Of a DNA stretch of 64,000 nt, positions 3,196 to 36,685 are shown in pieces. The first letter of the stretch is position 1. Every line of letters begins with the position of its first letter. The position numbers and the translations under genes are program-made. The DNA is taken from the IMG/VR virus record IMGVR_UViG_3300023371_004649; one strand, given 5' to 3'. Below the pieces are notes generated by a model. It searched no databases. It was not told the DNA's origin and worked only from the letters and a program-made list of their open reading frames with translations. The stretch is from a virus (taxonomy: Duplodnaviria; Heunggongvirae; Uroviricota; Caudoviricetes).

Positions 3196-3203
3196 AATAT
3201 TTT

Positions 3204-3237
3204 AAGTCCCACAAATTTTATTTGTGGGACTTTTTTG
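3204..3237 (+). terminator. rho-independent terminator
   Basis: gtcccacaaa-tttta-tttgtgggac hairpin followed by TTTTTT. Confidence 0.55.
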
Positions 3238-4993: not shown

Positions 4994-5007
4994 TCCCTGG
5001 CTTTTTC

Positions 5008-5037
5008 TTGACTTATATATTAAAATATGTTATAATA
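5008..5037 (+). promoter_or_regulatory. sigma-70-type promoter (TTGACT-N17-TATAAT with extended TG)
   Basis: TTGACT at 5008-5013 and TATAAT at 5031-5036. One of more than 30 copies of the conserved aaatATGTTATAATat element. Confidence 0.5.
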
Positions 5038-5070
5038 TATACAAGAAAAAGTATAAGAAGGAGAAAATAT

Positions 5071-6319: not shown

Positions 6320-6354
6320 AACCTATATCCCAATTAAGTTATAGAAAACAAAAA

Positions 6355-6388
6355 CATGGTATACAATAATTGTATACCATGTTTTTTC
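6355..6388 (+). terminator. rho-independent terminator
   Basis: catggtatacaa-taat-tgtataccatg hairpin followed by TTTTTTC. Confidence 0.55.
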
Positions 6389-6408
6389 TTATAGAAGGGG
6401 GTTTATAT

Positions 6409-7180: not shown

Positions 7181-7213
7181 ACTCTCATCCAACTGGATGA
7201 GAGTTTTATTTTT
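7181..7213. terminator. bidirectional terminator
   Basis: actctcatcc-aactg-gatgagagt hairpin flanked by T-runs, between convergent genes. Confidence 0.5.
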
Positions 7214-8270
7214 AGCCGCAAGTGCCACTAAAAGAGCCACAACGACAAGATGAATAAGAGATTCCGCAACTGGAACCAATCCCACAACTCGAACTGGGAA
7301 TTTTAGTGGGATGAATAGTCGGCAACCCACAACCCTGACGTACGCCACAACTGCTACCAGTGAAAACTACAGAATCGTCAGACTTCTTAGGCTTAGAAGA
7401 ATCCTGGGCAGCTTCGTTGAAATAAGCATCTTTCTTAGCCTTTTTAGCAGAAGCCGCTGTAGGAATCAAACCGTCGAGGTCAGAAATGGGCTTTTTATCC
7501 CAATCGTATGCAACGAAACCATCAGGGAAGATGATAATATCGTTGATAATAACGGTATTGCCCACTTTCAGACTACTCTTTTCGAGACCACGATGGAAAG
7601 CAATGTTTTCTACGAACTTTACGGTGTCGCAAACATCACAGAACCCATGAGATGCAAATTCGTAATTATCAAAAAGATAATCAAGAATATTATCTCCAGA
7701 CATAGCATGAAGAGTTTCAGGCGTAGTCTTACGAAAATCCCTACGGAAACAAACTGTGACATTGGAATCATCCTTCCAACGGTCGATAATTGCTTTCACA
7801 TCTTCAATAGTGGTTTTATCCGTAATAACGGCATTGACCTTGATTGGAACACTGATTCCCTTAAATGCCCAGTCATCCACAATGTTATGAAAAAGCTTGC
7901 AGTCTTCGCTAAAAGATGTAGCATGACGAGAAATGTTGATACCAGTGATATCCCCATCATCACACAGCTCCTGAATCCCAAAAAAATTTTTCTGGGGAAG
8001 AGTTGTGTTGACATAGACATTTTTGTGCTTAGCAATTTCAATCAACTCGTACAGCTTATGGATGTCTGCTGTAGGTTCCCCGCCAGTAAATACTACGTCG
8101 GTAATACCAGGAATCTTGATAGCCTGCTGGAGAGCTGCCTTAACGGCTTCAAAATCCATCTTTGTCTTTGCATATTCCTTCTTGCTCGTACAGAACGGAC
8201 AAGTGTTTTCGCAATCATAAGGAACATACACAGTAATTGCCATGTTTGAACGGCCAAACTTAAATTTCAT
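7212..8270 (-). CDS. radical SAM enzyme (NrdG/PflA-activase-like N-terminal domain) with a C-terminal low-complexity linker and a Cys/Gly/Ser-rich tail
   Basis: CENTCPFC (Cx3Cx2C) close to the N-terminus and a TGGEPT SAM-binding motif. A lysine-rich linker precedes a tail SSCGVRQGCGLPTIHPTKIPSSSCGIGSSCGISYSSCRCGSFSGTCG. RBS AAAGAGG. Own promoter and terminator. Confidence 0.65.
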   Translation of the reverse strand: MKFKFGRSNMAITVYVPYDCENTCPFCTSKKEYAKTKMDFEAVKAALQQAIKIPGITDVVFTGGEPTADIHKLYELIEIAKHKNVYVNTTLPQKNFFGIQELCDDGDITGINISRHATSFSEDCKLFHNIVDDWAFKGISVPIKVNAVITDKTTIEDVKAIIDRWKDDSNVTVCFRRDFRKTTPETLHAMSGDNILDYLFDNYEFASHGFCDVCDTVKFVENIAFHRGLEKSSLKVGNTVIINDIIIFPDGFVAYDWDKKPISDLDGLIPTAASAKKAKKDAYFNEAAQDSSKPKKSDDSVVFTGSSCGVRQGCGLPTIHPTKIPSSSCGIGSSCGISYSSCRCGSFSGTCG

Positions 8271-8369
8271 ATTTTTATACCTCTTTCTTATTTTTTAGCC
8301 ATTTTTATTTTTTGCTTGATAATATATTATATGAATTACCAATAAATAATATATTTTAGATTTTTTATT

Positions 8370-8410
8370 TTGCACAAAGAAAAGGTTCTCATCAATTGAT
8401 GAGAACCTTG
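8370..8410 (-). terminator. rho-independent terminator
   Basis: aaggttctcatc-aatt-gatgagaacctt hairpin followed by a T-run on the minus strand. Confidence 0.5.
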
Positions 8411-8415
8411 ATTTA

Positions 8416-8889
8416 TTAGACGCTAAGAGGAATCTGAGGCATACCATACAAAATGGAACCAGTAGCCTCATGTCTGCCTTCTAAGGCATAGTCATCATCC
8501 TCATCAATATCGTCTTCATAACTGCCCCAAAAATCTTCTTCGAACCAGTTATCGTTTAGCAGCATTGCCGCAAAAAACAGCGCCTGATACTTTTCATAAT
8601 CTTCAGGACTTACATCGTGAGCCAAAAACTCAAGCTGAGAGCTTGTGCCACCCACATTACTAATACACATCTCTTTCCCAGAGAATTTTGCAAGATATGC
8701 CTTTGCTAGAGCGGGAGTAATAACTCCAGAACGCAATAGCACATCAGCGAACTTATCAGCGGTGTACCCCTGAGTCAAATATACGTCAAACACGGATTCA
8801 ACGTCGTCATCAACATCTTCCCACGCATAGTAACATATAAAAGTATATGCGTCCTGAATACTCTTAATTGTGTCTTCACAAAAGAACAT
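8416..8889 (-). CDS. hypothetical acidic protein (157 aa); last gene of a four-gene minus-strand operon
   Basis: ORF 12 nt after the NUDIX gene; acidic C-terminus. Confidence 0.5.
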   Translation of the reverse strand: MFFCEDTIKSIQDAYTFICYYAWEDVDDDVESVFDVYLTQGYTADKFADVLLRSGVITPALAKAYLAKFSGKEMCISNVGGTSSQLEFLAHDVSPEDYEKYQALFFAAMLLNDNWFEEDFWGSYEDDIDEDDDYALEGRHEATGSILYGMPQIPLSV

Positions 8890-8901
8890 AATATATCCTC
8901 C

Positions 8902-9471
8902 TCAAATGTTAAGCATTTCGTTAGCCCAAAGATAAAGAAGTAACTGAGTTCTTGCAGCACACATTTCGGTTTTAAGTAACTCCTTTACCTCTTCCTTAGA
9001 ATACCAACCAGGCTCAATTTCTTCAAATTCATTATTGTTACCACCAAATTCTCCTTCAGCAATACCAATAATAAACTTGCTTTTTTCGTCGGACATACCA
9101 ACGGCACTAAAGGATTCCCCAAGAGTATGGTTAATAGAAACGAGCTTTAAGCCAGTTTCTTCCCATAATTCTCGAGCTGCGGAATCCATAAAATCCTCAC
9201 CAGGGTCAATTAGCCCCGCAGGAAAATTCATTACATAGCGATTGACCGCAAGCCGAAATTCACGATTTACACAAATTTTCGACTTGTCTTTGTTAAAGAC
9301 GACAATAACCACAGCATCTGTCTTGCCATTCTTCAGGTCTTCGACGGTAAGATTGTGATTATGACTTACAATCTCATAGATTTTCCGATTACCATTTCTG
9401 GTAACATAATTGAGATTGTACTTAGATAGAAACTCTCCCTGAGATACCTTTTCAATGTTTTTCAATTCCAT
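8902..9471 (-). CDS. NUDIX hydrolase (ADP-ribose pyrophosphatase-like)
   Basis: Nudix box GLIDPGEDFMDSAARELWEETGL. Confidence 0.7.
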   Translation of the reverse strand: MELKNIEKVSQGEFLSKYNLNYVTRNGNRKIYEIVSHNHNLTVEDLKNGKTDAVVIVVFNKDKSKICVNREFRLAVNRYVMNFPAGLIDPGEDFMDSAARELWEETGLKLVSINHTLGESFSAVGMSDEKSKFIIGIAEGEFGGNNNEFEEIEPGWYSKEEVKELLKTEMCAARTQLLLYLWANEMLNI

Positions 9472-9474
9472 CTG

Positions 9475-10212
9475 TTAATTCCTCCAATAACAATACATAC
9501 ACTTATACGGGCATTGCTTTTTTTCAGCAAGTAATTCGGTTTTTGCAGAACAACACAAACAACCCTTTCTCTGATAGCCTGCATTATCCACATTATCCAC
9601 TTTAAGCCCAAGCATTACGATATCCTTTTCACTTACGCAGCCAGACTGAAGAGTTTCTTGAAGCTTACCCTCAGCACAAGACTCAATCACAATATGTGGA
9701 TGTCTTGCTTTTACATCTCGCAACATATCGTCTGTCGCAAACATCATGTTATAAGATGCAGTGAAATAATCTCCATAAGGAGGGTCAATATTATTCTCTC
9801 TGAACCTCTCTCGAACATGTGGATACGCATCCATTATACTTACACGAAAACGAGAAAACCCACGGGCAATAGCTTCTTCAAATACTCTTTCTGCACGTTT
9901 TAAGCCCTTCTCGGTAGGAATAATTGGGTCGATACGAATAACTACCCTCTCAGGAGAAACCCCCGCAGAAAGCAATTTCTGAGCTTGTGAGAGCTGGTCA
10001 GTATATCGAGGAATATTAGGCTCTACAACAGTCTGACCATAACCTGTACAAGTAACATGAAAAATCATCTTATTAAAATAGGGACAAGCAGACTCAATTA
10101 CTTTGTCAGTAAGATTCTTAGTAATGAGAATTACTCCATCCATCTTATCCATCTGTTCAACCCAAGAAAAATCAATCGAAGGGTCGCCACGTTCAGTAAT
10201 TCCAATCTTCAT
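9475..10212 (-). CDS. putative Fe-S protein with a C-terminal CPYKCMYCYW cluster (DUF1848-like)
   Basis: C-terminal Cx3Cx2C plus further conserved Cys; 3 nt gap to the downstream gene. Confidence 0.45.
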   Translation of the reverse strand: MKIGITERGDPSIDFSWVEQMDKMDGVILITKNLTDKVIESACPYFNKMIFHVTCTGYGQTVVEPNIPRYTDQLSQAQKLLSAGVSPERVVIRIDPIIPTEKGLKRAERVFEEAIARGFSRFRVSIMDAYPHVRERFRENNIDPPYGDYFTASYNMMFATDDMLRDVKARHPHIVIESCAEGKLQETLQSGCVSEKDIVMLGLKVDNVDNAGYQRKGCLCCSAKTELLAEKKQCPYKCMYCYWRN

Positions 10213-10225
10213 TTACGCGTCCTCC

Positions 10226-10606
10226 TTAATTAGAATAAATTTCCTGCATATCGCTTAGTACAGTCTTGTATTTTTCAAGGCGCATCATGTTTTCCACATG
10301 AACCTGACTCTGCTCAACAGTATTGGAGCCCATAGCCCAAAGATTCTCCATACGAATCATTTCATTTGTCTTCTCGATTTCCGCTTCACACATTTTAACA
10401 ATCCAAGCAGACATAATCTCATCGACTTCCATGACGTGACCAGATTCAAAAATCTTTAACACACCACTTTCAACCTTATCGATAGCTTCTGCAGACTCAT
10501 CATCCCCATCAGAGTAACTAATATTGTCTGCAATACCACAGAGAGACCCACAAAGAGTCTTTGCCTCTTCAACCTTTGCCGAATCGAAAACGATAACCTT
10601 TTTCAT
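10226..10606 (-). CDS. hypothetical protein (126 aa); first gene of the operon
   Basis: ORF downstream of a TATAAT-containing promoter region on the minus strand. Confidence 0.5.
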   Translation of the reverse strand: MKKVIVFDSAKVEEAKTLCGSLCGIADNISYSDGDDESAEAIDKVESGVLKIFESGHVMEVDEIMSAWIVKMCEAEIEKTNEMIRMENLWAMGSNTVEQSQVHVENMMRLEKYKTVLSDMQEIYSN

Positions 10607-11675: not shown

Positions 11676-12287
11676 ATGTATTACAAACAAATTATCGTTG
11701 TTAATAAAGAATTAGATATGAGTAAAGGCAAAATGGCAGCTCAGGTAAGCCATGCGTCTATGGCATTTTTAACTCGTATGATTCAGCGAAATACCACGAG
11801 AAAATTAGAACATGTTTACCCTGCATGGTCAATCGACCCCAAAAGCAATAAAAAAGAGCCACAAAGATATAGAAGAGAAGATTTAGATAATTGGGCATTA
11901 GAAGCAAGGATTCGGGGAGATGCTTATTTCTGCGCCAAACCCGTTGACCCCAATAACCCATACGGAGAACTCCAACTTTGTGAACAGAATTATCATTACG
12001 AAACAACATTTTCCATTGATAAAGATTTATATGAACAGTGGATGGGCGGTTTATTCACAAAGGTAATTCTTTCTGCCAAAAACGAAAATCAAATGGTTAA
12101 AATTATAGAAAAAGCTAAAGAAGCAGGCCTTATTGAAGGAGAAGATTTTTTTTGTATCAGAGATGCTTGTTTAACAGAGCTAACACCTGACGAAACAGGT
12201 ACACGTTGGACTTGTATTGGATTTGCTCCTATGGATGCCGAAAAAATTGACCCAATCACAAAAAAACTACAACTATTTAAGGAGTGA
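11676..12287 (+). CDS. peptidyl-tRNA hydrolase, PTH2 (archaeal/eukaryotic) family
   Basis: N-terminal IIVVNKELDMSKGKMAAQVSHASMAF matches the Pth2 signature (..DL.MGKGKIAAQC.HA). RBS AAGAGGAG. Confidence 0.6.
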   Translation: MYYKQIIVVNKELDMSKGKMAAQVSHASMAFLTRMIQRNTTRKLEHVYPAWSIDPKSNKKEPQRYRREDLDNWALEARIRGDAYFCAKPVDPNNPYGELQLCEQNYHYETTFSIDKDLYEQWMGGLFTKVILSAKNENQMVKIIEKAKEAGLIEGEDFFCIRDACLTELTPDETGTRWTCIGFAPMDAEKIDPITKKLQLFKE

Positions 12288-13950: not shown

Positions 13951-13988
13951 AATACAGAAACGTTAAGAAATAATTGGAGGTAACTATA

Positions 13989-14462
13989 ATGCACAACGTA
14001 AATGTAAAGATTCTGAACCCTATGCTGCACGAAGCAGATATCAGTTATGCAAGCGAACAGGCAGCAGGTGTAGACCTAAGAGCTTGTATCGACAAACCTA
14101 TTATCATCAAGCCTCATCAGATTGTAAAGGTCCCTACTGGTATTGCAATTGCTGCAGAGCTAGGAGAAGACAAGTCATTTGTCGATAACCCGTTTTGTTA
14201 TCTACTCTTTGGTCGCTCTGGTCTTGGAGTAAAACACGGAATCACTCTTGCAAATTCTGTCGGGGTAATTGACGCCGATTATCGAGGAGAAATCGTAGCT
14301 GGTCTAATTAACCATTCTGACGAACCCTTTACTATTAATCCCCTTGATAGAGTGGCTCAGTTAGTTATGATGCCTATTAACCTAATGGCCTTTAACTTCG
14401 TAACAGAACTCAATGATACCGCTCGTGGTAGTGGTGGTTTTGGTTCTACAGGAACTAAATAA
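13989..14462 (+). CDS. dut: dUTP diphosphatase (dUTPase)
   Basis: FGRSGLGVKHGITLANSVGVIDADYRGEI motif; RBS GGAGG. Confidence 0.8.
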   Translation: MHNVNVKILNPMLHEADISYASEQAAGVDLRACIDKPIIIKPHQIVKVPTGIAIAAELGEDKSFVDNPFCYLLFGRSGLGVKHGITLANSVGVIDADYRGEIVAGLINHSDEPFTINPLDRVAQLVMMPINLMAFNFVTELNDTARGSGGFGSTGTK

Positions 14463-17153: not shown

Positions 17154-18214
17154 TTAGGCCGCTGAACTTTTACCATTCAGCGCAGGTGCCTGCATTATAT
17201 TAATTGCACCTACTATATCTCTATGCTGCTTATAACCACAACTACATTTATATAATCTGTCTTTAGCTTTATTATTTGCCCCACAACTTGGGCATTTTTG
17301 GCTTGTGTAGGCTGGATTTACTATTTCTACTTGTATGCCTACTAGTTGTGCTTTATATATTATGTAGTTCTGCAATCTATAAAATGACCAATTGTGCAAA
17401 CTCTTATTGTTTTTACGACTTGTTCTTGTCGTGGCCCTTATATTAGCCAGTTGCTCTAGTTTAATTATACTTACATTATTTTCTAAAGCAAAATTAACTA
17501 CCTCTCGGCTTATTTTGTGGTCTTGGTCATTCATCCAGTCGTTTTCTTTGTGACCTATACGTTTGATTGCTTGTGGTTTCTTTAGTTTGCCGAGTTGCTT
17601 TCTCTTTGTAGCAAATTGACGTTTCTTATGCTTAATCATACGTCCATTACCTACAAATTTAGTTTTGTTATTACTTACTCGGCAAACAGCTGGACATTTA
17701 ATACCTAAATCTACTCCCATTATAACGTCCCCAGAAACGACTGGAGTTTCTTTCTTTTCGTAGGTTATAAATGCCATATATTTATTATTTTTTCTACATA
17801 CTCTTAATAAACCTAAACTATCTTTGTTTTCTAGAAGAGTATTGTAGATTTCAGAGGTTATTTTTGCTGGTATTTTAGTTTTTCTAGATTTAGACTCAAT
17901 CCATAAAGGAAAAGCTATTCCGTCTTCGAATATACTGTAGTTTTGATTGTTTATATACATAGCAGGTTTCTTTAAAACGCTATTCTTTTTTTTTTGTCTT
18001 TATAAATAGACTTAGCATCTCTAATACACTGATTTAGAATAGCAGCTGGAAGTGGTGCATTTACAGTTGCTGTTGTCAGTGGGTCCCACTTCAATTGGCC
18101 ATGTTGGTAGTCAACTATACTATTTACAGTAGCTATATAATCAGAAGTCATAGAATCCAAAATAGAAGCAATAAATTTATTAGGATTTAGTTTCAATTTA
18201 ACAGTTATAACCAA
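17154..18214 (-). pseudogene. tnpB: tnpB (IS605 OrfB) split by a frameshift at a poly-A10 tract
   Basis: N-terminal fragment 17972..18214 (MVITVKLKLNPNK...) and C-terminal fragment 17154..17960 join to about 348 aa. The two frames are separated at A10 (T10 on the plus strand, about 17986-17995). Confidence 0.55.
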
Positions 18215-19143: not shown

Positions 19144-19848
19144 ATGAGATTAATTATCTACGACTGCGAAAACTGTTATCACGAAAACCTAGCAAAGAAA
19201 CTATCTAAAATGCAAAAATACGAAATAGTTTTTGTAGTTGGAAAAAGACAGAATATTAAAATCAAAGAATCAGAAACAGTAACTATTTTAAAAAGTGACA
19301 AGATAGCACATAACCACGCAGATTTTATTGCTGTAACAGAATTATCTCGTCGTTTACATACTAAAAAATATCAATCGGCATGTATTATTTCAAATGATAA
19401 AGGTTTTGACGGAGCTATCAAGCTAATGAGAGAATATGGATTCTCCGTTAATAGATATGGCCCAGAAATGTTTGAAAGACGCTATAAATGCGCGTTAGAC
19501 AAAATTGATATTAACATGCCTGGAACATATAAATTAACTAAAACTCCTCAATACAGACCTAGCAGACACCTAAAAAAGTATAATATTAAGAAACCCGATA
19601 ACAAAGAAAAAATTGTTGCCAGCGCAACACATTTTATTAATAGAATATATAAAGAAACAAACAAATCTTTGGAAATCGAAGAAACACAAATTACTAAGAT
19701 GATTTATGAATCTTCTCATAAAAATCCTAAAGAAGTCGAAGCATTACTTCGCAGAAGTCATATATTAAATAATAAACGAATTGTTCTGACAGAAATAAGT
19801 ATTGATAATTTCTGCAGAGAGGCAGACAAAATTTTATCTGCAACATAA
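19144..19848 (+). CDS. NYN-domain (LabA-like, PIN-like) putative RNase
   Basis: MRLIIYDCENC at the N-terminus and CIISNDKGFDGAIKLMREYG resemble NYN/LabA motifs (D..N...SgDsDf). Confidence 0.45.
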   Translation: MRLIIYDCENCYHENLAKKLSKMQKYEIVFVVGKRQNIKIKESETVTILKSDKIAHNHADFIAVTELSRRLHTKKYQSACIISNDKGFDGAIKLMREYGFSVNRYGPEMFERRYKCALDKIDINMPGTYKLTKTPQYRPSRHLKKYNIKKPDNKEKIVASATHFINRIYKETNKSLEIEETQITKMIYESSHKNPKEVEALLRRSHILNNKRIVLTEISIDNFCREADKILSAT

Positions 19849-21045: not shown

Positions 21046-21663
21046 TTATGCGGCGTACTGCCATCTATATCCATAAGCACTTTTTCTCTTGCCACGACAA
21101 ACCTTAGAAATATGCCCAGAATTAACTCCAGAAACAATCATTTCTGCTTCGTGACAAGAATTATATGTACGAATAACTTCCCCGTCTAGAGTTAGCTGAA
21201 TAACGGAAGTAGAGTTATTTTTCATTACACTCTGAGAGCTCTCAATCTCGATATTGTTTTGTTTCATAATATTTCTCATAGTTTTAGGGGAGATGTTGAA
21301 ATGGTCACAAGTTTCAGAGAAGTTATGATTACCATAAAACTTTTTTAACTCATCAATATCAACGAATACATAAGCTCTACCATCTCCACCAAGAGTTTCG
21401 TTATAACCGTTACTATATGTATGAAGAAGATTAATCCAATATGCTTCACGTTCAGCAGTATTTTCAGTTTCTTCAATTACGGAGAACTCAAAATTTTCTA
21501 CTCCATATTTTTTCATTGCACGATAAAGAGCTCGATTTTTACAATCTTCTCGATTGATGGCTCTCAAATGCTCATTCCATCGACGATTAACATTGAAATA
21601 ATCCGTCTTCCCAATATACATTTTGTGATTTAGCATGTTTTCAATCTTATAAATGTAGCCCAT
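21046..21663 (-). CDS. free-standing GIY-YIG homing endonuclease (Seg/I-TevI-like)
   Basis: MGYIYKIEN...KMYIGKT and NGYN..LGGDG motifs; C-terminal DNA-binding region AYGYRWQY. Confidence 0.7.
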   Translation of the reverse strand: MGYIYKIENMLNHKMYIGKTDYFNVNRRWNEHLRAINREDCKNRALYRAMKKYGVENFEFSVIEETENTAEREAYWINLLHTYSNGYNETLGGDGRAYVFVDIDELKKFYGNHNFSETCDHFNISPKTMRNIMKQNNIEIESSQSVMKNNSTSVIQLTLDGEVIRTYNSCHEAEMIVSGVNSGHISKVCRGKRKSAYGYRWQYAA

Positions 21664-26278: not shown

Positions 26279-26382
26279 TTTAATCGCCTCCTTCTTTATA
26301 ATATATTTGAAATTTATTATTTTTAAATATAAAAAATATCGAAGAAAAGAAAAATCCTTGCCCGAAAGCAAGGATGCGTGGA

Positions 26383-26658
26383 TTAATTTTCTTCATCAAT
26401 GCAACCACAACTGATGAGTTGCCCGCCACAAACGGGACAACGTTCCATATCACAGCCAGGGTGATGATAATGACCTCGAGTAGCGCCACAATCTCCACAG
26501 CGCTCGGATTCGGTTTCATAGAAATAAGAATCTTCGAAATCATCATTCGCACAACCCATTTTGATAGGTTCGTACTCCTTTCCGTTATGCTTAATAGGAA
26601 TTCGAACACATCCCTTTGCGGTCAACATATCTTTCCCACAATATTCGCACTTTGCCAT
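26383..26658 (-). CDS. Cys-rich zinc-ribbon protein (91 aa)
   Basis: CEYCGK...CGDCG...CPVCGG..CGC; RBS GGGAGGAA; terminator downstream. Confidence 0.45.
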   Translation of the reverse strand: MAKCEYCGKDMLTAKGCVRIPIKHNGKEYEPIKMGCANDDFEDSYFYETESERCGDCGATRGHYHHPGCDMERCPVCGGQLISCGCIDEEN

Positions 26659-26740: not shown

Positions 26741-27241
26741 TTATTTTGGCTTTTTATTATAAGTAGAACCTTCCCGAGACAATCTTTTTCTAAAAGGCTT
26801 TTCAAAAGGTCTTCTTATTTTAACTAATATCCCTTCTTCTTTAGTCATGGGGTCGACTAAAGCTAGTCTTACCCCGCACCGAGCTCCACAAAGCATATCA
26901 GTAAAAATTTGGTCTCCAACAAAAAGCACCTCTTCAGGTTTATACTGACTATATCTCAAAAATCTTTTCAGTTCGCCAGGAAAAGGCTTATGCCCGCTAT
27001 CAAAATATTTAGTATCTAAAGATATTGCAAATTTAATGATTCTAGGCATAATATTATTGGAATAGAGGAATATGGTATATCCTTTTTCTTTTAAATTTTT
27101 CATATATTTTTTTACTTCATCACCAGGATGTCTAATCCTGGGAGAAGCTAAAGTATTATCAATATCAAATATCAATACTTTAACATCTGGATATAACGAA
27201 TAATCTATATCAAAAATGGATTTAAAATAATTAATGCGCAC
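26741..27241 (-). CDS. HAD-superfamily phosphatase (YqeG/IIIA-type); putative 3'-phosphatase partner of the adjacent kinase
   Basis: GTG start with RBS AGGAGG; VLIFDIDNTLA (motif I) and GDQIFTD; compare T4 Pnk phosphatase VIFDVDGTLA. Confidence 0.55.
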   Translation of the reverse strand: MRINYFKSIFDIDYSLYPDVKVLIFDIDNTLASPRIRHPGDEVKKYMKNLKEKGYTIFLYSNNIMPRIIKFAISLDTKYFDSGHKPFPGELKRFLRYSQYKPEEVLFVGDQIFTDMLCGARCGVRLALVDPMTKEEGILVKIRRPFEKPFRKRLSREGSTYNKKPK

Positions 27242-27347
27242 AATAATGCACCTCCTGTATATATTATTATACAACCATTTTCTAAGAACAACTGTTTTTA
27301 TGGTTTTAGAAAAATAAAAGCTCCGTCCCGAAGGAAGGAGCTAATAA

Positions 27348-27836
27348 TCAGTTGTCGGTGTTATGTACGACCAGGACATACCAGTCTTCGGGAACGAAGT
27401 TCACGAACTTGTGGTACATTTTGCGAACAACATCCTCAGGCACGTTCTTATAACCACGCTCGGTATTACGCTTGAGCAAGGTTTCCAGGCTACACTCGAA
27501 GCGGTGAACTTCAACGGAATAGCCATACTTCTGAGCCAGATTTTTCACCAGCTCCAGAGAACGAGCATCGAGATGGGTATTGTCCAGAACGGTGTAAGCG
27601 CCAGCCATCATTCGGGTTTCCACCATGCGGCGGTAAATCTCGAAAACGGTCTTGTTATAATCCTGAGAAATTCGAATGGGATTACCATCCTTGTCTCTCA
27701 CGATAGCGCCACACATCTCACGAATAGCGTCCATAGAGAGAACGCAATCATCACCGTACATCGCCTTCTGAATCTGAGCCTCGGTGCTCTTACCAGCAGC
27801 AGCAACACCAGAAAAAACAACGACTTTCTTTTCCAT
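27348..27836 (-). CDS. polynucleotide 5'-kinase-like P-loop kinase (T4 Pnk kinase-domain-like)
   Basis: Walker A GVAAAGKST. TVLDNTHLDARSLELVKNLAQKYGYSVEVHRFECSLETLLKRNTERGYKNVPEDVVRKMYHKF closely parallels T4 Pnk [47 protein letters not shown]. Confidence 0.55.
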   Translation of the reverse strand: MEKKVVVFSGVAAAGKSTEAQIQKAMYGDDCVLSMDAIREMCGAIVRDKDGNPIRISQDYNKTVFEIYRRMVETRMMAGAYTVLDNTHLDARSLELVKNLAQKYGYSVEVHRFECSLETLLKRNTERGYKNVPEDVVRKMYHKFVNFVPEDWYVLVVHNTDN

Positions 27837-27923
27837 TGAATATTCCTCCTCATTTGTTTAAAACCTTTTTATGGAAACTTAATATTATTATATAATTTTT
27901 GTTTTCAAAAAACAATGTGTATC

Positions 27924-28878: not shown

Positions 28879-29145
28879 TTAAAATGCCTCTTTGTGAATT
28901 GCCTCCAGCAGCTCAATAGTTAGCTCTTCCCCTCCCTCAGCCACTCGTTTATCATCAATTACAGAATCAATTGTGCAGTTGGGGCAAATGGCAGTATATC
29001 TACCATCCTTTTCTTCCATAAATTCAATCTCTTCTTTATTAAGCAAAGAACAACAATAATAACAACCACAGGTTTTTGCATCTTCAATATATGGTCTATT
29101 TCCAAAAGCCATTTTAATATAATGCCGAACATTATGCTTCATCAA
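28879..29145 (-). CDS. Cys-rich small protein (88 aa)
   Basis: CGCYYCC...CPNC motifs. Confidence 0.4.
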   Translation of the reverse strand: MMKHNVRHYIKMAFGNRPYIEDAKTCGCYYCCSLLNKEEIEFMEEKDGRYTAICPNCTIDSVIDDKRVAEGGEELTIELLEAIHKEAF

Positions 29146-30684: not shown

Positions 30685-30767
30685 GCTGGTGTGGTGGAAT
30701 GGCAGACACGCTAGTCTTAGGAACTAGTGCCTTGTGCGTGTGGGTTCGAGTCCCACCACCAGCACCA
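30685..30767 (+). tRNA. tRNA-Leu (anticodon TAG), type II, CCA encoded
   Basis: Acceptor gctggtg/caccagc; D-arm gtggtggaatggcagacac; anticodon stem ctagt/actag with loop cttagga; long variable arm; T-arm gggttcgagtccc. Confidence 0.8.
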
Positions 30768-30773
30768 TAATAT

Positions 30774-30860
30774 GCCGCAGTGGTGGAATAGGCAGACACC
30801 AGGGACTTAAAATCCCTTGCTGGCAACAGCGTGCGGGTTCGAGTCCCGCCTGCGGCACCA
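30774..30860 (+). tRNA. tRNA-Leu (anticodon TAA), type II, CCA encoded
   Basis: Acceptor gccgcag/ctgcggc; anticodon loop cttaaaa; long variable arm. Confidence 0.8.
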
Positions 30861-31027
30861 AAACAAGTGCTATGAATCCAAAACCTCAGACTTTGAGATG
30901 TCCTCAATGCGCACGTAATTGAGATGGTTACCATACAGATTCGCTTTAGTTGAATGGAGTTAAAAGAACAGCTTGTTTTCCTTGTATAATGGGTGCCGTT
31001 TTAAAACCGCTCATTATACGCATATAT

Positions 31028-31104
31028 AGGCCCTTAGCTCAGTCGGTTAGAGCTAGCGCCTCATAAGCGCTCGGTCCTGGGTTCGAGCCCCAGAGGGCCT
31101 ACCA
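31028..31104 (+). tRNA. tRNA-Met (anticodon CAT; elongator or Ile-lysidine cannot be told apart), CCA encoded
   Basis: Acceptor aggccct/agggcct; anticodon stem agcgc/gcgct with loop ctcataa; own TGnTATAAT -10 element (ttgtataatg) at about 30988. Confidence 0.75.
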
Positions 31105-31195: not shown

Positions 31196-32830
31196 ATGGC
31201 TTGGTTAATTCCCGCAGGTATCGTCATTGGTATCGTAATCATTCTTGTCGCCTTTCTGTGTGCTATTTATAAGGTAGCAGATATCGATAAGGCACTAATC
31301 ATTACAGGTGGTAAGGAACCTGTAATTAAGGTTTCTGGTGGTTCTTTTGTAATCCCTATTTTCCGTAAGGCATCTTATTTCGACCTTTGCATGCTAACCG
31401 TTAAGGCAGACAGGGACGAAATTCGTACTATTACATCTGTACCCATTGTAACTGACTGGACTGCTCAGATTCGCCCTGACACTAATAATATGGATAACCT
31501 AAAGAAGGCAATTGTTTCCTTCAAGGAACGTGGTCAGGATGGTATTATCCAGGACGTTAAGTTAACCCTTACTGGTGCAGTTCGTGATATCGTCGCATCT
31601 ATGACCCCTGAGGCAGTTCTTCGTGACAAGGCTGAGTTCGCTCAGAAGGTCCGTGATACTGTTGAAGACGAAATGCGCAATATGGGTATGGAACTGGTTT
31701 CACTAAATATCCAGGATATCTCTGACAATAATCATTATTACGATAACATCGCTGCTCTCGACCAGGAAGACAAGCGTCTTGCTGCAGAGAATAAGCGTGC
31801 TCAGATTGACCAGGAAGTTCGTAAGAAGAAGGCTGAAGCAGAAAAGATTGCTGCTCATGCCGAACTTGAATCCGACCTCGCTATCGCTGAAAAGCAGCGT
31901 GATAATAACTTGAAGCAGGCAGAATTCAAGGCTGAAACTGATACCGCTAATGCTAACGCAGAAATCGCTGGTCAGCTTCAGACCACTAAGCGTATGCAGG
32001 AAATCGCAGAACAGGAAGGCAAGATTGAAGTCGTTCGTCAGGAACAGGCTAACCTTGCCGCTATCAAGGAAAAGGAAGTTATCGTTACTCGTGCCCAGGC
32101 TGAAAAGGAAAAGGACATGATTGCTGCTGATGCTTCCGCTAACGTTGAAAAGATTAAGGCTGACGCTAAGGTCCAGATTGCTGAGAAGCATGCTTCCGCA
32201 ATTAAGATTGAGGCCGATGCTAATGCCGAAAAGGTTCGTCAGGAAGGTCAGGCAATTGCCGACGTTGAACGTCAGAAGGGTACTGCTGAAGCTGAAGTTG
32301 TTCGTCAGCGCGGTCTCGCTGAAGCCGAAGTTGAAAAGCAGCAGGGTCTTGCTCGTGCAGAAGTTACTAAGCAGAATGGTCTTGCTGAAGCTGAAGCCGA
32401 GCGTGCTAAGCTGATGGCTCAGGCCGATGGTGAACGCGCACTTGCTGATGCTCGTGCTTCTAACGAAAAGGTTAACTTCGAAATTGAGAAGATTAAGCTC
32501 GAAACTGAAGCTCGTATTACCATTGCTACTAAGACTGCTGAAATTATGGCAGAAATCGGTAAGAACGCTGAGTTCGTTAATATCGGTGGTGGCGCCCAGG
32601 GCCCTGGTGCTCTTGGAAGCCCTACTGGAAACGTCCTAATGGACACTCTCGCCAGCGTTCCCGTTCTTATGAAGACTCTCAACGTTGAAAATCAGGCCCT
32701 CAATGGCAAGACTATCAACGAAGAGGTAGAAGGTCTTGTTGGCAGTGTTGTAGGCCCCATGAAGGGTATGCTTGTTAATACCGAAGGTGACAACAAGCAG
32801 CTTCCCGAAGCTCCTACCGATGCTGAATAA
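31196..32830 (+). CDS. flotillin-like SPFH/band-7 protein (FloT/YuaG-like)
   Basis: N-terminal TM helix and SPFH domain, then a long EA/AE-rich coiled-coil repeat (AEAE, KQ..LA.AE); 544 aa. Confidence 0.7.
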   Translation: MAWLIPAGIVIGIVIILVAFLCAIYKVADIDKALIITGGKEPVIKVSGGSFVIPIFRKASYFDLCMLTVKADRDEIRTITSVPIVTDWTAQIRPDTNNMDNLKKAIVSFKERGQDGIIQDVKLTLTGAVRDIVASMTPEAVLRDKAEFAQKVRDTVEDEMRNMGMELVSLNIQDISDNNHYYDNIAALDQEDKRLAAENKRAQIDQEVRKKKAEAEKIAAHAELESDLAIAEKQRDNNLKQAEFKAETDTANANAEIAGQLQTTKRMQEIAEQEGKIEVVRQEQANLAAIKEKEVIVTRAQAEKEKDMIAADASANVEKIKADAKVQIAEKHASAIKIEADANAEKVRQEGQAIADVERQKGTAEAEVVRQRGLAEAEVEKQQGLARAEVTKQNGLAEAEAERAKLMAQADGERALADARASNEKVNFEIEKIKLETEARITIATKTAEIMAEIGKNAEFVNIGGGAQGPGALGSPTGNVLMDTLASVPVLMKTLNVENQALNGKTINEEVEGLVGSVVGPMKGMLVNTEGDNKQLPEAPTDAE

Positions 32831-35066: not shown

Positions 35067-35495
35067 ATGGTTAAGAATTGGCTCGTAAAGCACAAGTATG
35101 AAATTGGCTCTGCTATCCTTATGCTCGCAGTTTTTGCAATCCTAACCTTCGGTTTCGGTAGTCTGGTCAAGGTTAAGGCAGAGCAACCCGTTGTCACGAA
35201 TGAATACAAAGTCCTTACTGTTTATCAGTACTCCGCTCCCGTTACAAACGGCTATGGCGGAGTAAAGAGACACGAGACAAAGTATCATGTTACTTACATC
35301 AACAATGACGGCGATATCTGCGATAAAGAAATGTATAATGCCGCCGCCACCTCTGAAAAGCCCTATGAGGCTGTTTATATGGGTGAGGAAACCAAACTGG
35401 TTATTACCAGCAAAGGTTCCACTTCTTGGTACGCTCTGTACCTGACGGAACAGGACTTCCAGGAGATGCGATATAAGCTAATTGAGTCTGAATAA
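35067..35495 (+). CDS. membrane-anchored hypothetical protein (142 aa)
   Basis: RBS AAGGAGAAAAAG; N-terminal TM helix; GC-richer. Confidence 0.45.
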   Translation: MVKNWLVKHKYEIGSAILMLAVFAILTFGFGSLVKVKAEQPVVTNEYKVLTVYQYSAPVTNGYGGVKRHETKYHVTYINNDGDICDKEMYNAAATSEKPYEAVYMGEETKLVITSKGSTSWYALYLTEQDFQEMRYKLIESE

Positions 35496-36384: not shown

Positions 36385-36402
36385 AAAGTACAAACAAGAG
36401 AT

Positions 36403-36480
36403 GCAGAAAAAGTTCTGAAAGGTCGGAACGAATTATAAATAATAGAATTCGGGTAGGTTCGAATCCTACTTTCTGCCCCA
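36403..36480 (+). ncRNA. tRNA-like element with an 11-nt anticodon loop (pseudo-tRNA or unconventional tRNA), CCA encoded
   Basis: Acceptor gcagaaa/tttctgc; D-stem gttc/gaac with a GG-containing loop; T-arm gtagg-ttcgaat-cctac; discriminator and CCA present. The anticodon stem gaatt/aattc encloses ataaataatag. Confidence 0.4.
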
Positions 36481-36609
36481 AAAAAGACTGCCATAGGTGA
36501 ACCTCGTGATTCAGCTACCAAAGAAACGGCTTGAAAATGATGCCATAGTTCGAGGCTGGCAGAATGTATCTATCCAAAAGCTTTTCTACTGTGCATACAA
36601 CTTAATTAT

Positions 36610-36685
36610 GAGGGTATAGCTCAGTAGGTAGAGCACTTGCCTTTTAAGCAAGGAGTCGAGGGTTCGAGCCCCTCTACCCTCACCA
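36610..36685 (+). tRNA. tRNA-Lys (anticodon TTT), CCA encoded
   Basis: Acceptor gagggta/taccctc; anticodon stem cttgc/gcaag with loop cttttaa; T-arm gagggttcgagcccctc. Confidence 0.8.

What the first reader, a model, noticed from the sequence alone, without database searches (positions are those of the whole stretch)
26741..27836. Split T4-Pnk-like end-healing enzyme: P-loop polynucleotide kinase gene next to a HAD phosphatase gene
27348..27836 encodes a 162-aa P-loop kinase. Its C-terminal half (LDNTHLDARSLELVKNLAQKYGYSVEVHRFECSLETLLKRNTERGYKNVPEDVVRKMY) parallels the T4 polynucleotide-kinase kinase domain, including the KRN..RG..VP..V..MY block. The next gene on the same strand, 26741..27241, is a HAD phosphatase whose motif I (VLIFDIDNTLA) resembles the T4 Pnk 3'-phosphatase motif (VIFDVDGTLA). 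In T4 the two activities are fused. There, Pnk and an RNA ligase repair tRNA-Lys cut by the host anticodon nuclease PrrC. Here the module is split into two separately terminated genes, and no ligase is evident in the window.
Basis: partly seen in the sequence, partly recalled or inferred. Interest (0 to 1): 0.7.

Follow-up and report, generated by a model that had tools for sequence, protein, structure and literature searches.

The report
Pnk-type kinase beside YqeG/PgpP phosphatase
The kinase gene really does belong to the polynucleotide-kinase (RNA/DNA end-healing) family, but the neighbouring HAD gene belongs to the YqeG/PgpP family (a membrane-lipid phosphatase), so the pair is most likely two unrelated neighbours and not a split T4 Pnk.

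Summary
Both ORFs exist on the minus strand: a 162-aa kinase (27348..27836) and a 166-aa HAD protein (26741..27241, GTG start).

The kinase is a stand-alone member of the 5'-OH polynucleotide kinase clade. Its family profile hits T4 Pnk (2e-30), C. thermocellum Pnkp kinase (3e-29) and PSTK (1e-27). Adenylate kinases reach only ~1e-6. All T4 Pnk catalytic residues are kept. The model superposes on CthPnkp (TM 0.75-0.82) and T4 Pnk (0.73).

The HAD protein is YqeG family: TIGR01668 at 1.4e-23 and every YqeG-invariant residue. YqeG was shown in 2025 to be PgpP, the phosphatidylglycerophosphate phosphatase of Gram-positives. It shares only motifs I-II, which are HAD-superfamily-wide, with the Pnk phosphatase family. 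It matches no pseT in 50,697 phage records.

The two genes are separate transcription units, with a conserved terminator and -10 box between them. Their codon usage differs sharply (GC3 0.55 against 0.22). They are neighbours only in one narrow clade, and the pairing is broken in several relatives. No ligase or other end-healing phosphoesterase (metallophosphoesterase, Pnk-type HAD) was found in the 64 kb.

Verdict: kinase call right, "split Pnk module" not supported. Side finding: a phage-type Ro60/TROVE gene with tandem Y-RNA-like units.

The parts
27348..27836 (-). Stand-alone 5'-OH polynucleotide-kinase-clade gene (162 aa). P-loop G10-x4-G15-K16-S17, catalytic D36 and R39, D85, lid R123 and R127.
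27845..27850 (-). Ribosome-binding site AGGAGG, 8 nt upstream of the kinase ATG.
   Evidence: Read from the sequence.
27881..27908 (-). Promoter-like site upstream of the kinase (TTGAAA-16-AATATT, 9 of 12). Consensus match only.
27310..27342 (-). Intrinsic terminator of the kinase gene: AGCUCC..GGAGCU hairpin plus U-tract. A terminator occupies the same position in L001 and L101.
27266..27271 (-). TATAAT -10 box for the HAD gene, invariant in the window, L001 and L101. The -35 element is weak, and the promoter is inferred.
27251..27256 (-). Ribosome-binding site AGGAGG, 9 nt upstream of the GTG start of the HAD gene.
26741..27241 (-). YqeG/PgpP-family HAD-IIIA phosphatase gene (166 aa). Motif I D26-x-D28-N29-T30, motif II S61-N-N, motif III K85-P86, motif IV G109-D110-Q-x-F-T-D115. 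N-terminal SIFDIDY box.
   Evidence: PMC11804483.
26383..26658 (-). Downstream 91-aa Cys-rich (zinc-ribbon-like) gene, possibly co-transcribed with the HAD gene since no terminator lies between them. No known family. Context only.
26354..26375 (-). Terminator after the 91-aa gene, the first convincing one downstream of the HAD gene.

Best explanation
These are two functionally unrelated genes, transcribed independently, that happen to be neighbours in one narrow lineage.

(1) 27348..27836 encodes a stand-alone P-loop 5'-hydroxyl polynucleotide kinase of the Pnk/Pnkp clade. By inference from T4 Pnk and CthPnkp, K16/S17 hold the ATP phosphates and Mg2+, D36 activates the 5'-OH of a broken RNA or DNA strand, R39 and T87 hold the phosphate 3' of the terminal nucleoside, and R123/R127 stabilise the transferred phosphate. 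The 5'-phosphate product would either be sealed by a ligase encoded elsewhere or become a substrate for 5'-P-dependent decay. Which of the two happens is not known.

(2) 26741..27241 encodes a YqeG/PgpP-family HAD-IIIA phosphatase. By inference from B. subtilis and S. aureus PgpP and yeast Gep4, it removes the phosphate from phosphatidylglycerophosphate to make phosphatidylglycerol, through an aspartyl-phosphate intermediate on D26 with D28 as acid/base.

Shown here: family membership, conserved residues, folds, the transcription signals and the synteny pattern. Inferred: substrates and biological roles.
For: KINASE.
- Pfam AAA_33 at 2.6e-19. The best NCBIfam hits are the bacterial Pnkp kinase part (8e-11) and PSTK (9.5e-11).
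- The family profile hits T4 Pnk at 2e-30 (residues 1-145), CthPnkp kinase at 2.6e-29, PSTK at 1e-27, Pnkp1 at 2.6e-23 and mammalian PNKP at 1.6e-12. UMP/CMP and adenylate kinases reach about 4e-7 to 2e-6, and no shikimate kinase is in the top 60.
- Invariant across the family alignments: G10, G15, K16, D36, R39, D85, R123, R127. S17 is invariant in A1 and at least 90% conserved in A3.
- The model has pLDDT 95.5. The top Foldseek hits are CthPnkp kinase (TM 0.75-0.82), PSTK and T4 Pnk (0.73).
- PHROG hits: phrog_8238 (N-terminus of kinase-phosphoesterase-ligase proteins) at 1.7e-28 and phrog_505 (polynucleotide kinase) at 1.6e-22.
- tblastn hits pseT of T4-like phages and the Twort-type 'RNA ligase' N-termini.
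- Among the nearest relatives by full HMMER scan, besides small stand-alone kinases, are kinase+Metallophos and kinase+Metallophos+RNA_lig_T4_1 proteins.

HAD.
- TIGR01668 (YqeG) at 1.4e-23, covering profile positions 22-167 of 170. PF09419 (PGP_phosphatase) scores above its cutoff.
- 122 homologues were found. All that carry a family name are called YqeG; one is named only 'HAD hydrolase-like protein'.
- Every invariant or near-invariant column of a 64-sequence YqeG alignment is kept.
- YqeG is PgpP, with the two Asp of hhhDxDx essential (PMC11804483).
- The nearest relatives outside the clade (36-39% identity) sit in yqeG-aroE-aroK-aroQ-efp contexts.

NOT A MODULE.
- A terminator and a -10 box lie between the genes, conserved in three diverged loci.
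- GC3 is 0.55 for the kinase and 0.22 for the HAD gene here, 0.58 and 0.18 in L001, and 0.60 and 0.26 in L101.
- The adjacency is absent in L005/L100, L017 and L018/L019, and is interrupted by an opposite-strand gene in L006.
- None of five stand-alone kinase relatives has an adjacent HAD gene.
- Neither of the two outgroup yqeG loci has a Pnk-type kinase.
Against: - The kinase-then-HAD order on one strand persists in the most diverged relative seen (L101: kinase 53%, HAD 45% identity), so the linkage is old within the clade.
- Relatives of this kinase almost always travel with a phosphoesterase, and no other end-healing phosphoesterase (metallophosphoesterase or Pnk-type HAD) lies in the 64 kb.
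- The HAD score (83.3 bits) is just under the TIGR01668 cutoff (89.1).
- The canonical yqeG operon partners are absent.
- The replicon could not be placed, so 'housekeeping lipid gene' is not proven for this copy. No GTDB species representative carries the kinase. The Clp ATPase is at most 47% identical to any representative. About half of the ORFs have no Pfam family. The window carries sigma factors, PTH2, dUTPase, GIY-YIG and a TROVE protein 58% identical to Bacillus phage G gp540.
- No enzyme activity was measured.
Confidence: 0.65

Rival explanations
1. A genuine split end-healing module. In this lineage, possibly a large phage or mobile element, a YqeG-type HAD-IIIA phosphatase has been recruited as the 3'-phosphatase or 2',3'-cyclic phosphodiesterase partner of the Pnk-type kinase. 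Together they would prepare broken tRNA/RNA ends for a ligase encoded elsewhere.
For: - Same-strand adjacency in the window, L001-L004 and the diverged L101.
- Kinase relatives are normally fused to, or near, a phosphoesterase.
- No metallophosphoesterase or other end-healing phosphoesterase lies in the window.
- From my own knowledge of the family, not tested here, HAD subfamily IIIA also holds eukaryotic PNKP-type 3'-phosphatases.
- The replicon has phage-like traits, and the window carries a tRNA-Lys(UUU) gene.
Against: - The HAD protein keeps every YqeG-specific residue, including the N-terminal SIFDIDY box and the DIDNT, SNN, KP and GDQxFTD motifs. There is no sign of a re-tooled pocket.
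- Profile-profile comparison with the true Pnk phosphatase family aligns only 58 columns (motifs I-II). The positive control gives 141 columns at E 1.6e-41.
- There is no hit to phrog_505 or to any pseT, and T4 Pnk is absent from the top 50 structural matches.
- A conserved terminator and promoter lie between the genes, and their codon usage is opposite.
- The pairing is broken in at least three related lineages.
- No ligase was found.
Confidence: 0.1
2. The kinase acts on something other than broken nucleic-acid ends. Candidates are an aminoacyl-tRNA or other tRNA-linked hydroxyl (as PSTK does) or a small molecule (as other AAA_33, zeta-toxin or CPT-type kinases do). In that case it could conceivably be linked to the lipid or nucleotide chemistry of its HAD neighbour.
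For: - PSTK scores almost as well as Pnk.
- There are weak Pfam hits to Zeta_toxin and CPT.
- Recombinant B. subtilis YqeG was purified and assayed as a candidate 5'-nucleotidase in one study (PMC5080769, abstract).
- No ligase or phosphoesterase partner was found nearby.
Against: - The protein has only the roughly 160-aa kinase core. From my own knowledge, not tested here, it lacks the C-terminal tRNA-binding domain of PSTK; the chains are 259-260 aa.
- D36, R39 and T87, which in T4 Pnk bind the 5'-nucleoside and its 3'-phosphate, are invariant or nearly so.
- Its closest multidomain relatives are all RNA-repair architectures.
- Stand-alone relatives lie in phage tRNA-repair contexts: Thg1/RlaP/CCA enzyme in one, RNA ligase plus Metallophos in another.
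Confidence: 0.1
3. The HAD gene is an auxiliary or paralogous YqeG-like copy carried by a large phage or mobile element. Its physiological substrate would differ from PGP (for example nucleotides), and it would be unrelated to the kinase.
For: - The replicon is unplaced and rich in ORFans.
- The score lies just below the TIGR01668 cutoff.
- The yqeG operon context has been lost.
Against: - All family-invariant residues are kept.
- Relative to the cutoffs, this is the best-preserved family match among the window proteins tested. The HAD protein reaches 93% of its cutoff, against 37-67% for the Clp ATPase, NAD kinase, sigma factor and Pth2.
- It is not present in IMG/VR.
Confidence: 0.12

Closest known systems
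Bacteriophage T4 polynucleotide kinase-phosphatase (Pnk, PseT), kinase domain (PDB 1LY1/1LTQ)
   Same: Same P-loop kinase fold and the same catalytic set. Window K16, S17, D36, R39, R123 and R127 correspond to T4 K15, S16, D35, R38, R122 and R126. The profile match is 2e-30 over T4 residues 1-145, and TM is 0.73.
   Different: There is no fused HAD phosphatase domain, and identity is only 23-26%. The neighbouring HAD protein is not of the Pnk phosphatase family. No Rnl1 or Rnl2 partner was seen.
Clostridium thermocellum Pnkp (kinase-metallophosphoesterase-ligase of the Pnkp-Hen1 RNA repair system; PDB 4GP6/4JST/4MDE) and the phage Twort-type kinase-phosphoesterase-ligase proteins (phrog_8238)
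   Same: These give the best structural match (TM 0.75-0.82) and the best PHROG match (1.7e-28). The nearest multidomain relatives by HMMER carry this architecture. The architecture itself is described in PMC3675462.
   Different: The window protein is the kinase module alone. No metallophosphoesterase, ligase or Hen1 lies in the 64 kb.
B. subtilis / S. aureus YqeG = PgpP and yeast Gep4 (phosphatidylglycerophosphate phosphatases; TIGR01668, PF09419, COG2179)
   Same: Near full-length TIGR01668 match at 1.4e-23. The hhhDxDx active site has both Asp residues, and all family-invariant positions are kept. Size is about 166 aa, and the fold is a capless HAD-IIIA core with a C-terminal helix (PMC11804483).
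   Different: The score is 83.3 bits against a cutoff of 89.1. Identity to the nearest outside relatives is only 36-39%. The gene is not in the yqeG-yqeH... or yqeG-aroE-aroK operon. The replicon is unplaced.
Split healing-and-sealing sets in phages, such as locus L102 (stand-alone kinase, separate Metallophos, separate RNA ligase) and L011 (kinase with Thg1, RlaP and CCA-adding enzyme)
   Same: They carry stand-alone kinases of about 160 aa from the same family (33-36% identity).
   Different: In those loci the partners are recognisable RNA-repair enzymes. In the window the only neighbouring phosphatase is a YqeG-type lipid phosphatase.
O-phosphoseryl-tRNA(Sec) kinase PSTK (PDB 3ADB/3A4L)
   Same: The kinase core is related at similar significance.
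   Different: PSTK chains are about 250-260 aa, roughly 100 aa longer than this protein. From my own knowledge, the extra part is a C-terminal tRNA-binding domain and PSTK is archaeal/eukaryal; neither point was tested here.

Membership tests
5'-OH polynucleotide kinase clade (T4 Pnk / bacterial Pnkp kinase / PNKP kinase) | P-loop GxxxxGK(S/T) at the N-terminus | tested here: met
   G10-VAAA-G15-K16-S17-T18. G10, G15 and K16 are invariant in the family alignments A1 and A3; S17 is invariant in A1 and at least 90% conserved in A3.
5'-OH polynucleotide kinase clade (T4 Pnk / bacterial Pnkp kinase / PNKP kinase) | Catalytic Asp (general base for the 5'-OH; T4 D35) and Arg three residues later (T4 R38) | tested here: met
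   D36 and R39 in SMDAIRE are invariant in both alignments. They align to T4 RDDYR in the profile alignment.
5'-OH polynucleotide kinase clade (T4 Pnk / bacterial Pnkp kinase / PNKP kinase) | Lid arginines in the RNxxR block (T4 R122, R126) | tested here: met
   R123 and R127 are invariant. The ungapped HMMER alignment to T4 residues 82-145 places them on R122 and R126.
5'-OH polynucleotide kinase clade (T4 Pnk / bacterial Pnkp kinase / PNKP kinase) | Closer in sequence and fold to Pnk-type kinases than to nucleotide, shikimate or other small-molecule kinases | tested here: met
   The profile gives 2e-30 for T4 Pnk against about 4e-7 to 2e-6 for UMP/CMP and adenylate kinases. SKI is not hit. 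The top 30 or more Foldseek matches are all Pnkp, PSTK, T4 Pnk or PNKP.
5'-OH polynucleotide kinase clade (T4 Pnk / bacterial Pnkp kinase / PNKP kinase) | ATP-dependent phosphorylation of 5'-OH RNA/DNA ends | not testable with these tools
   Needs an enzyme assay.
T4-type bifunctional Pnk (kinase plus DxDxT 3'-phosphatase), fused or split | The phosphatase belongs to the Pnk phosphatase family (C-terminal half of phrog_505; T4 residues 148-301) | tested here: not met
   - The HAD protein has no hit to phrog_505.
- It matches no pseT among its 12 phage tblastn hits.
- T4 Pnk is not among its PDB sequence hits at E <= 10, nor in the top 60 profile hits, nor in the top 50 Foldseek hits.
- hhalign against the Pnk phosphatase family profile covers only 58 columns (motifs I-II). 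The control, that family profile against T4 Pnk, covers 141 columns at E 1.6e-41.
T4-type bifunctional Pnk (kinase plus DxDxT 3'-phosphatase), fused or split | Kinase and phosphatase fused, or co-expressed as one unit | tested here: not met
   They are separate genes with an intrinsic terminator and a -10 box between them, conserved in three loci. GC3 is 0.55 against 0.22.
T4-type bifunctional Pnk (kinase plus DxDxT 3'-phosphatase), fused or split | A companion RNA ligase (Rnl1, Rnl2 or RtcB) in the same genome | tested here: inconclusive
   None was found in the 64-kb window (Pfam scans; tblastn). The rest of the replicon, a contig of at least 205 kb, could not be read.
YqeG / PgpP (TIGR01668, COG2179, PF09419) PGP phosphatase | Full-length match to the family model | tested here: inconclusive
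   TIGR01668 gives E 1.4e-23 and 83.3 bits over profile positions 22-167 of 170, just under the curated cutoff of 89.1. PF09419 gives 36.5 bits against a cutoff of 20.4, but over a partial stretch. Other window proteins reach only 37-67% of their family cutoffs.
YqeG / PgpP (TIGR01668, COG2179, PF09419) PGP phosphatase | hhhDxDx active site with both Asp residues (B. subtilis D34, D36, essential) | tested here: met
   VLIFD26ID28NT. D26, D28, N29 and T30 are invariant in 64 YqeG-family sequences. The requirement comes from PMC11804483.
YqeG / PgpP (TIGR01668, COG2179, PF09419) PGP phosphatase | Family-specific conserved positions outside the generic HAD motifs | tested here: met
   The N-terminal S-x-FDIDY box, SNN, R67, F71, KP, GDQIFTD, and R144/E147 in the C-terminal helix are all present (consensus and invariant list).
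YqeG / PgpP (TIGR01668, COG2179, PF09419) PGP phosphatase | Conserved operon context (yqeG-yqeH-aroD-... in Bacilli; yqeG-aroE-aroK-aroQ-efp in the two clostridial loci sampled) | tested here: not met
   The window neighbours are the kinase, a 91-aa Cys-rich gene and a BspA-type LRR gene. The outgroup contexts were seen. Context is supporting evidence and not strictly defining.
YqeG / PgpP (TIGR01668, COG2179, PF09419) PGP phosphatase | PGP-to-PG phosphatase activity, or complementation of pgp mutants | not testable with these tools
   Needs genetics or biochemistry, as in PMC11804483.
Bacterial Pnkp (TIGR04075: kinase-metallophosphoesterase-ligase, with Hen1) | Three-module architecture of about 850 aa with a Hen1 partner | tested here: not met
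   Only profile positions 9-136 of 851 are matched, at 40.8 bits against a cutoff of 750. No Metallophos or ligase is in the window.

The most novel reading that the evidence does not exclude
On an unplaced, ORFan-rich, possibly huge-phage-like replicon of a low-GC host, a YqeG-type HAD-IIIA phosphatase has been co-opted as the 3'-end-healing partner of a stand-alone Pnk-type kinase. This would be a third, previously unseen solution for the phosphatase half of RNA end healing, beside the T4 HAD type and the Pnkp metallophosphoesterase type. It would act with the replicon's own tRNA genes (including tRNA-Lys UUU) and Ro60/Y-RNA-like system against host anticodon nucleases.
Probability: 0.08. 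Interest if true: 0.65.

Novelty: new member of a known kind. Interest (0 to 1): 0.27.

Why it matters
If the split-Pnk reading were true, it would show a new way of assembling an RNA end-healing system. The evidence instead says the resemblance in the HAD half is a superfamily-wide motif. The gene belongs to the family of the recently identified lipid enzyme PgpP.

What remains of interest is modest. There is a small clade of stand-alone Pnk-type kinases (about 160 aa, with a conserved DWYxLVVHN tail). It has no recognisable phosphatase or ligase partner. Its codon usage is strikingly atypical, and that bias persists across orthologues. Its replicon matches no species representative. It could be a handle on 'kinase-only' RNA end processing, either repair with a distant ligase or 5'-P-dependent decay.

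The more promising lead in the window is separate from this finding: a phage-type Ro60 gene preceded by tandem structured sRNA units. The same architecture recurs upstream of the Bacillus phage G Ro60 gene, and no Rfam family matches it.

Tried and rejected
- A scan of genome contigs with kinase patterns found no relative in 185,579 species representatives. The first attempt, with alignment A1, failed for lack of a conserved stretch.
- A Clp ATPase scan for taxonomy gave at most 47% identity to everything, with hits spread across phyla, so no placement was possible.
- IMG/VR scans with the kinase and with the HAD protein found nothing.
- The metagenome scan gave only two short loci. One of them, L101, was informative.
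- Cluster look-ups returned no names.
- The afdb50 fold library was unavailable, so the HAD model could not be compared directly with the AlphaFold models of YqeG or Gep4.
- PADLOC found no defence-system match for the kinase, the HAD protein or their neighbours.
- Shikimate kinase was considered, because clostridial yqeG sits near aroK. It was rejected: there is no SKI hit, and the Pnk-clade evidence is strong.
- Prophage or known phage was considered. Megablast matched only a tRNA, PHROG scans of ORFans found nothing but a transposase, and phage G shares only the TROVE gene within the 41 kb examined.
- Rfam found no Y RNA or YrlA near the TROVE gene.
- The flanks of the TROVE gene show no nucleotide similarity to phage G, L107 or L108.
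- The MAFFT alignment of the phage G sRNA units misaligned the 3' halves. No covariance model was built, and the shared architecture rests on individual folds and inspection.
Full report
OBSERVATION. Both genes exist on the minus strand. The kinase ORF is 27348..27836 (162 aa, ATG start, AGGAGG 8 nt upstream). The HAD ORF is best read as 26741..27241 (166 aa, GTG start, AGGAGG 9 nt upstream). The mechanical ORF extends to a TTG at 27274, but all close homologues are 160-167 aa.

THE KINASE. Pfam places it in AAA_33 (2.6e-19). Its best NCBIfam hits are the kinase part of bacterial Pnkp and PSTK. An exhaustive HMMER scan of 1.84 billion representatives found 1121 relatives. Apart from small stand-alone proteins of about 160 aa, the nearest are kinase+Metallophos proteins (about 360-430 aa) and kinase+Metallophos+RNA_lig_T4_1 proteins (about 660-770 aa). 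These are RNA-repair architectures. A profile search also reached proteins of about 286 aa that carry the kinase plus a C-terminal domain. I showed that this domain is the T4 Pnk phosphatase type (hhalign 100%, E 1.6e-41).

A profile of 44 family members hits T4 Pnk at 2e-30 over residues 1-145. It also hits the C. thermocellum Pnkp kinase (2.6e-29), PSTK (1e-27), Pnkp1 (2.6e-23) and mammalian PNKP (1.6e-12). UMP/CMP and adenylate kinases reach only about 4e-7 to 2e-6, and no shikimate kinase appears in the top 60. The invariant columns are G10, G15, K16, D36, R39, D85, R123 and R127; S17 is invariant in one alignment and at least 90% conserved in the other. This is the T4 Pnk catalytic set. 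The AlphaFold model (pLDDT 95.5) matches CthPnkp kinase best (TM 0.75-0.82), then PSTK and T4 Pnk (0.73). PHROGs gives phrog_8238 (kinase-phosphoesterase-ligase, N-terminal part) at 1.7e-28 and phrog_505 (polynucleotide kinase) at 1.6e-22. tblastn finds pseT of T4-like phages and Twort-type 'RNA ligase' genes.

THE HAD PROTEIN. Its best family is TIGR01668, the YqeG family of HAD-IIIA phosphatases (1.4e-23, profile positions 22-167 of 170, 83.3 bits against a cutoff of 89.1). PF09419 (PGP_phosphatase) scores above its cutoff. Among its 122 homologues, all that carry a family name are called YqeG; one is named only 'HAD hydrolase-like protein'. In a 64-sequence alignment the window protein keeps every invariant column (D26, D28, N29, T30, K85, P86, G109, D110, Q111, F113, T114, D115). 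It also keeps every near-invariant one, including the N-terminal S-x-FDIDY box and residues of the C-terminal helix. YqeG was shown in 2025 to be PgpP, the essential phosphatidylglycerophosphate phosphatase of Gram-positive bacteria and a homologue of yeast Gep4, with both Asp of hhhDxDx required (PMC11804483).

The tests for the Pnk phosphatase family all fail:
- There is no T4 Pnk among the PDB sequence hits at E <= 10, nor in the top 60 profile hits.
- hhalign against the T4 Pnk phosphatase domain covers only 43 columns.
- hhalign against a 28-sequence profile of true Pnk phosphatase domains covers only 58 columns, which are motifs I and II.
- The model (pLDDT 91) has no T4 Pnk among its top 50 Foldseek matches.
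- There is no hit to phrog_505.
- Only 12 phage records match, none of them pseT, and most are unannotated fragments.

The catalytic residues the two share (nucleophile Asp, acid/base Asp, motif II Ser, motif III Lys, motif IV Asp) are those of every HAD phosphatase. For the T4 residues see PMC3592404.

LINKAGE. A hairpin plus U-tract follows the kinase stop codon (-14.9 kcal/mol, z -3.7). It is followed by a TATAAT box and the HAD ribosome-binding site. The same layout is present in L001 and L101, with the -10 box and RBS invariant. No terminator follows the HAD gene, which may be co-transcribed with the downstream 91-aa Cys-rich gene.

Codon usage is opposite in the two genes. The kinase uses CTG/CTC, CGT/CGC, ACC, CAG and AAG with almost no A-ending codons (GC3 0.55). 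The HAD gene uses the genome-typical TTA, AGA, AAA and CAA (GC3 0.22). The contrast recurs in orthologues: 0.58 and 0.18 in L001, 0.60 and 0.26 in L101, and 0.36 and 0.12 in L006.

Synteny was examined in every related locus available:
- Kinase-then-HAD is kept in L001-L004 (kinase 65% identity) and in L101 (kinase 53%, HAD 45%).
- It is interrupted by a 329-aa opposite-strand gene in L006.
- It is lost in L005/L100, where a zinc-ribbon membrane protein follows the kinase.
- It is lost in L017, where the HAD gene follows YitT.
- It is lost in L018/L019, where no kinase lies upstream of a 73%-identical HAD gene.

Other neighbour pairs with no functional relation are conserved to a similar degree. 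Examples are NAD kinase with the 88-aa and 225-aa genes, the HAD gene with the 91-aa and LRR genes, and MBL with YitT. Outside the clade, five stand-alone kinase relatives have no adjacent HAD gene. Two of them lie in phage tRNA/RNA-repair contexts. One has Thg1, RlaP and a CCA-adding enzyme. The other has an RNA ligase and a Metallophos protein within 5 kb. The two nearest outgroup YqeG genes lie in pilus-yqeG-aroE-aroK-aroQ-(pepP)-efp contexts with a shikimate kinase and no Pnk-type kinase. No ligase, metallophosphoesterase, Thg1, RlaP or CCA enzyme is in the window (plus Pfam scans).

MOST LIKELY MECHANISM. The kinase is a monocistronic, probably well-expressed 5'-OH polynucleotide kinase, with a strong RBS, its own promoter-like site and terminator, and biased codons. 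It would convert the 5'-OH ends left by metal-independent ribonucleases into 5'-phosphates. What happens next is inferred and not shown: sealing by a ligase encoded elsewhere, or 5'-P-dependent exonucleolytic decay. The HAD protein most likely dephosphorylates phosphatidylglycerophosphate. The adjacency is best explained as lineage-specific synteny.

CAVEAT ON THE REPLICON. The kinase clade is absent from 185,579 GTDB species representatives and from IMG/VR. The window's Clp ATPase is at most 47% identical to any representative. None of ten window proteins reaches an NCBIfam equivalog cutoff. About half of the roughly 60 ORFs scanned have no Pfam family. Gene content mixes cellular-looking genes (ABC exporters, YitT, NAD kinase, a lipoprotein MBL) with genes common in very large phages. 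The latter include two sigma factors, Pth2, dUTPase, GIY-YIG, PIN/NYN, NUDIX, four tRNAs and a TROVE protein 58% identical to Bacillus phage G gp540. I could not decide between a deep-branching low-GC bacterium and a large mobile element or phage. If it is the latter, the YqeG gene is an auxiliary copy and the split-module rival gains a little. That is why my confidence is 0.65 and not higher.

COMPARISON AND NOVELTY. The kinase is a new member (a small stand-alone clade) of a well-known enzyme family. The HAD protein is a divergent member of YqeG/PgpP. The proposed 'split T4 Pnk' fails the defining test for the phosphatase half. Novelty: new member of a known kind. Interest: low to moderate.

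SIDE FINDINGS. (i) 40742..42409 (-) encodes a Ro60/TROVE protein (phrog_850 at 1e-43; 58% identical to phage G gp540; 60% and 42% to two IMG/VR contigs, one of 341 kb).

(ii) Upstream of it lie two tandem units, each behind a TTGAC-N17-TATAAT-like site inside a 64-nt direct repeat. Each folds as stem, then an AGCGG internal loop, then a second stem, then an apical part starting CUUCA/UUUCA. The second stem is fully compensatory between the two copies. Phage G has five units of the same architecture in the 1-kb gap upstream of gp540, and L108 has two variant units. Rfam 15 matches none of them. They are candidate Y-RNA-like partners of phage Ro60.

(iii) Downstream of the TROVE gene, 39895..40275 (-) is strongly structured (z -6.0).

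Noticed in passing
window 40742..42409 (-): A 555-aa Ro60/TROVE-type RNA-binding protein. Pfam TROVE 1.5e-7; phrog_850 at 1.1e-43 over the full length. It is 58% identical over 99% of its length to Bacillus phage G gp540, and 60% and 42% identical to two IMG/VR viral contigs (58 kb and 341 kb). Its GC3 is 0.46, elevated like that of the kinase.
   Followed up: partly
window 42445..42736 (-); compare L106 19267..19955 (phage G) and L108 2628..2925: Two tandem sRNA-like units lie upstream of the TROVE gene. Each sits behind a TTGAC-N17-TATAAT-like site inside a 64-nt direct repeat (72% identity, spacing 165). Each folds as stem 1, an AGCGG / A(A)UUUUC internal loop, stem 2, then an apical part starting CUUCA/UUUCA. 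Stem 2 is fully compensatory between the copies (z -2.1 and -4.0). Phage G has five units of the same architecture upstream of its TROVE gene ([A/U]GCGG .. ACAGU UACUUCA). No Rfam 15 family matches them. They are candidate Y-RNA-like partners of phage Ro60. No covariance model was built.
   Followed up: partly
window 39895..40275 (-): About 380 nt of non-coding sequence downstream of the TROVE gene folds far better than shuffles (-126.8 kcal/mol, z -6.0, 0 of 100 shuffles as good). It ends in a long hairpin followed by U8. There is no Rfam match. The mechanical ORF 40160..40567 (+), which partly overlaps it, is probably spurious.
   Followed up: partly
window-wide; extreme at 27348..27836: The window has two codon-usage classes. 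Most genes have GC3 around 0.2 (TTA, AGA, AAA, CAA). A minority have GC3 of 0.35-0.55 (CTG, CGT, AAG, CAG, ACC, GCT, GGT): the kinase, TROVE, the Band_7 gene at 31196..32830, 62812..63993, 7212..10606 and 35067..35495. The kinase is the most extreme. Its bias persists in orthologues 53-65% identical (GC3 0.36-0.60, against 0.12-0.26 for neighbours). This argues for selection or a distinct expression class, not a recent transfer. It remains unexplained.
   Followed up: partly
whole window: The identity of the replicon is unresolved. There is no close relative among GTDB species representatives or in IMG/VR. The Clp ATPase is at most 47% identical to any representative. No tested protein reaches an NCBIfam equivalog cutoff. 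About half of the ORFs have no Pfam family. The window carries two sigma factors (229..930, 60868..61446), Pth2 (11676..12287), dUTPase (13974..14462), PIN/NYN (19144..19848), GIY-YIG (21046..21663), NUDIX plus DUF1848 plus radical SAM (7212..10212) and a transposase (17154..17960). It also carries ABC exporters, YitT and NAD kinase. It may be a very large phage or mobile element, or a deep-branching low-GC bacterium.
   Followed up: partly
window 26383..26658 (-); L002 2613..3238: A 91-aa Cys-rich (CxxC-rich, zinc-ribbon-like) protein lies downstream of the HAD gene. It is more conserved than its neighbours (87% identity in L001, where the kinase is 65%), and it is tandemly duplicated in L002. 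It belongs to no known family. The 88-aa gene at 28879..29145 is also CxxC-rich and hits phrog_30788 (unknown function).
   Followed up: no
window 30685..31104 and 36402..36685 (+): A tRNA-Leu(UAG), tRNA-Leu(UAA), tRNA-Met cluster and a lone tRNA-Lys(UUU). A weak tRNA-Sec-like Rfam hit (22.9 bits, E 0.5) lies at 36402..36477, just upstream of tRNA-Lys. If the replicon is a phage, a tRNA-Lys(UUU) gene would be relevant to anticodon-nuclease defence.
   Followed up: no
L102 (GCA_030638275.1 DAOWEZ010000004.1) 161..6480; L011 669..9549: Phage-like contigs in which a stand-alone kinase of this family lies near recognisable RNA-repair genes. L102 has an RNA ligase (PF09414) and a separate Metallophos protein within 5 kb, which is a real 'split Pnkp'. 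L011 has Thg1, RlaP and a CCA-adding enzyme.
   Followed up: partly
L013 6001..8081; L015 6001..8370: In two clostridial genomes yqeG lies in a conserved pilus-yqeG-(aroE)-aroK-aroQ-efp arrangement. A small P-loop kinase next to yqeG is therefore common there, but it is shikimate kinase, an unrelated family.
   Followed up: partly
window 54122..54913 (-): A 263-aa protein with a PHP (metal-dependent phosphoesterase) domain sits in a long same-strand cluster of ORFans (51137..58381). It is 27 kb from the kinase. No link between them was examined.
   Followed up: no
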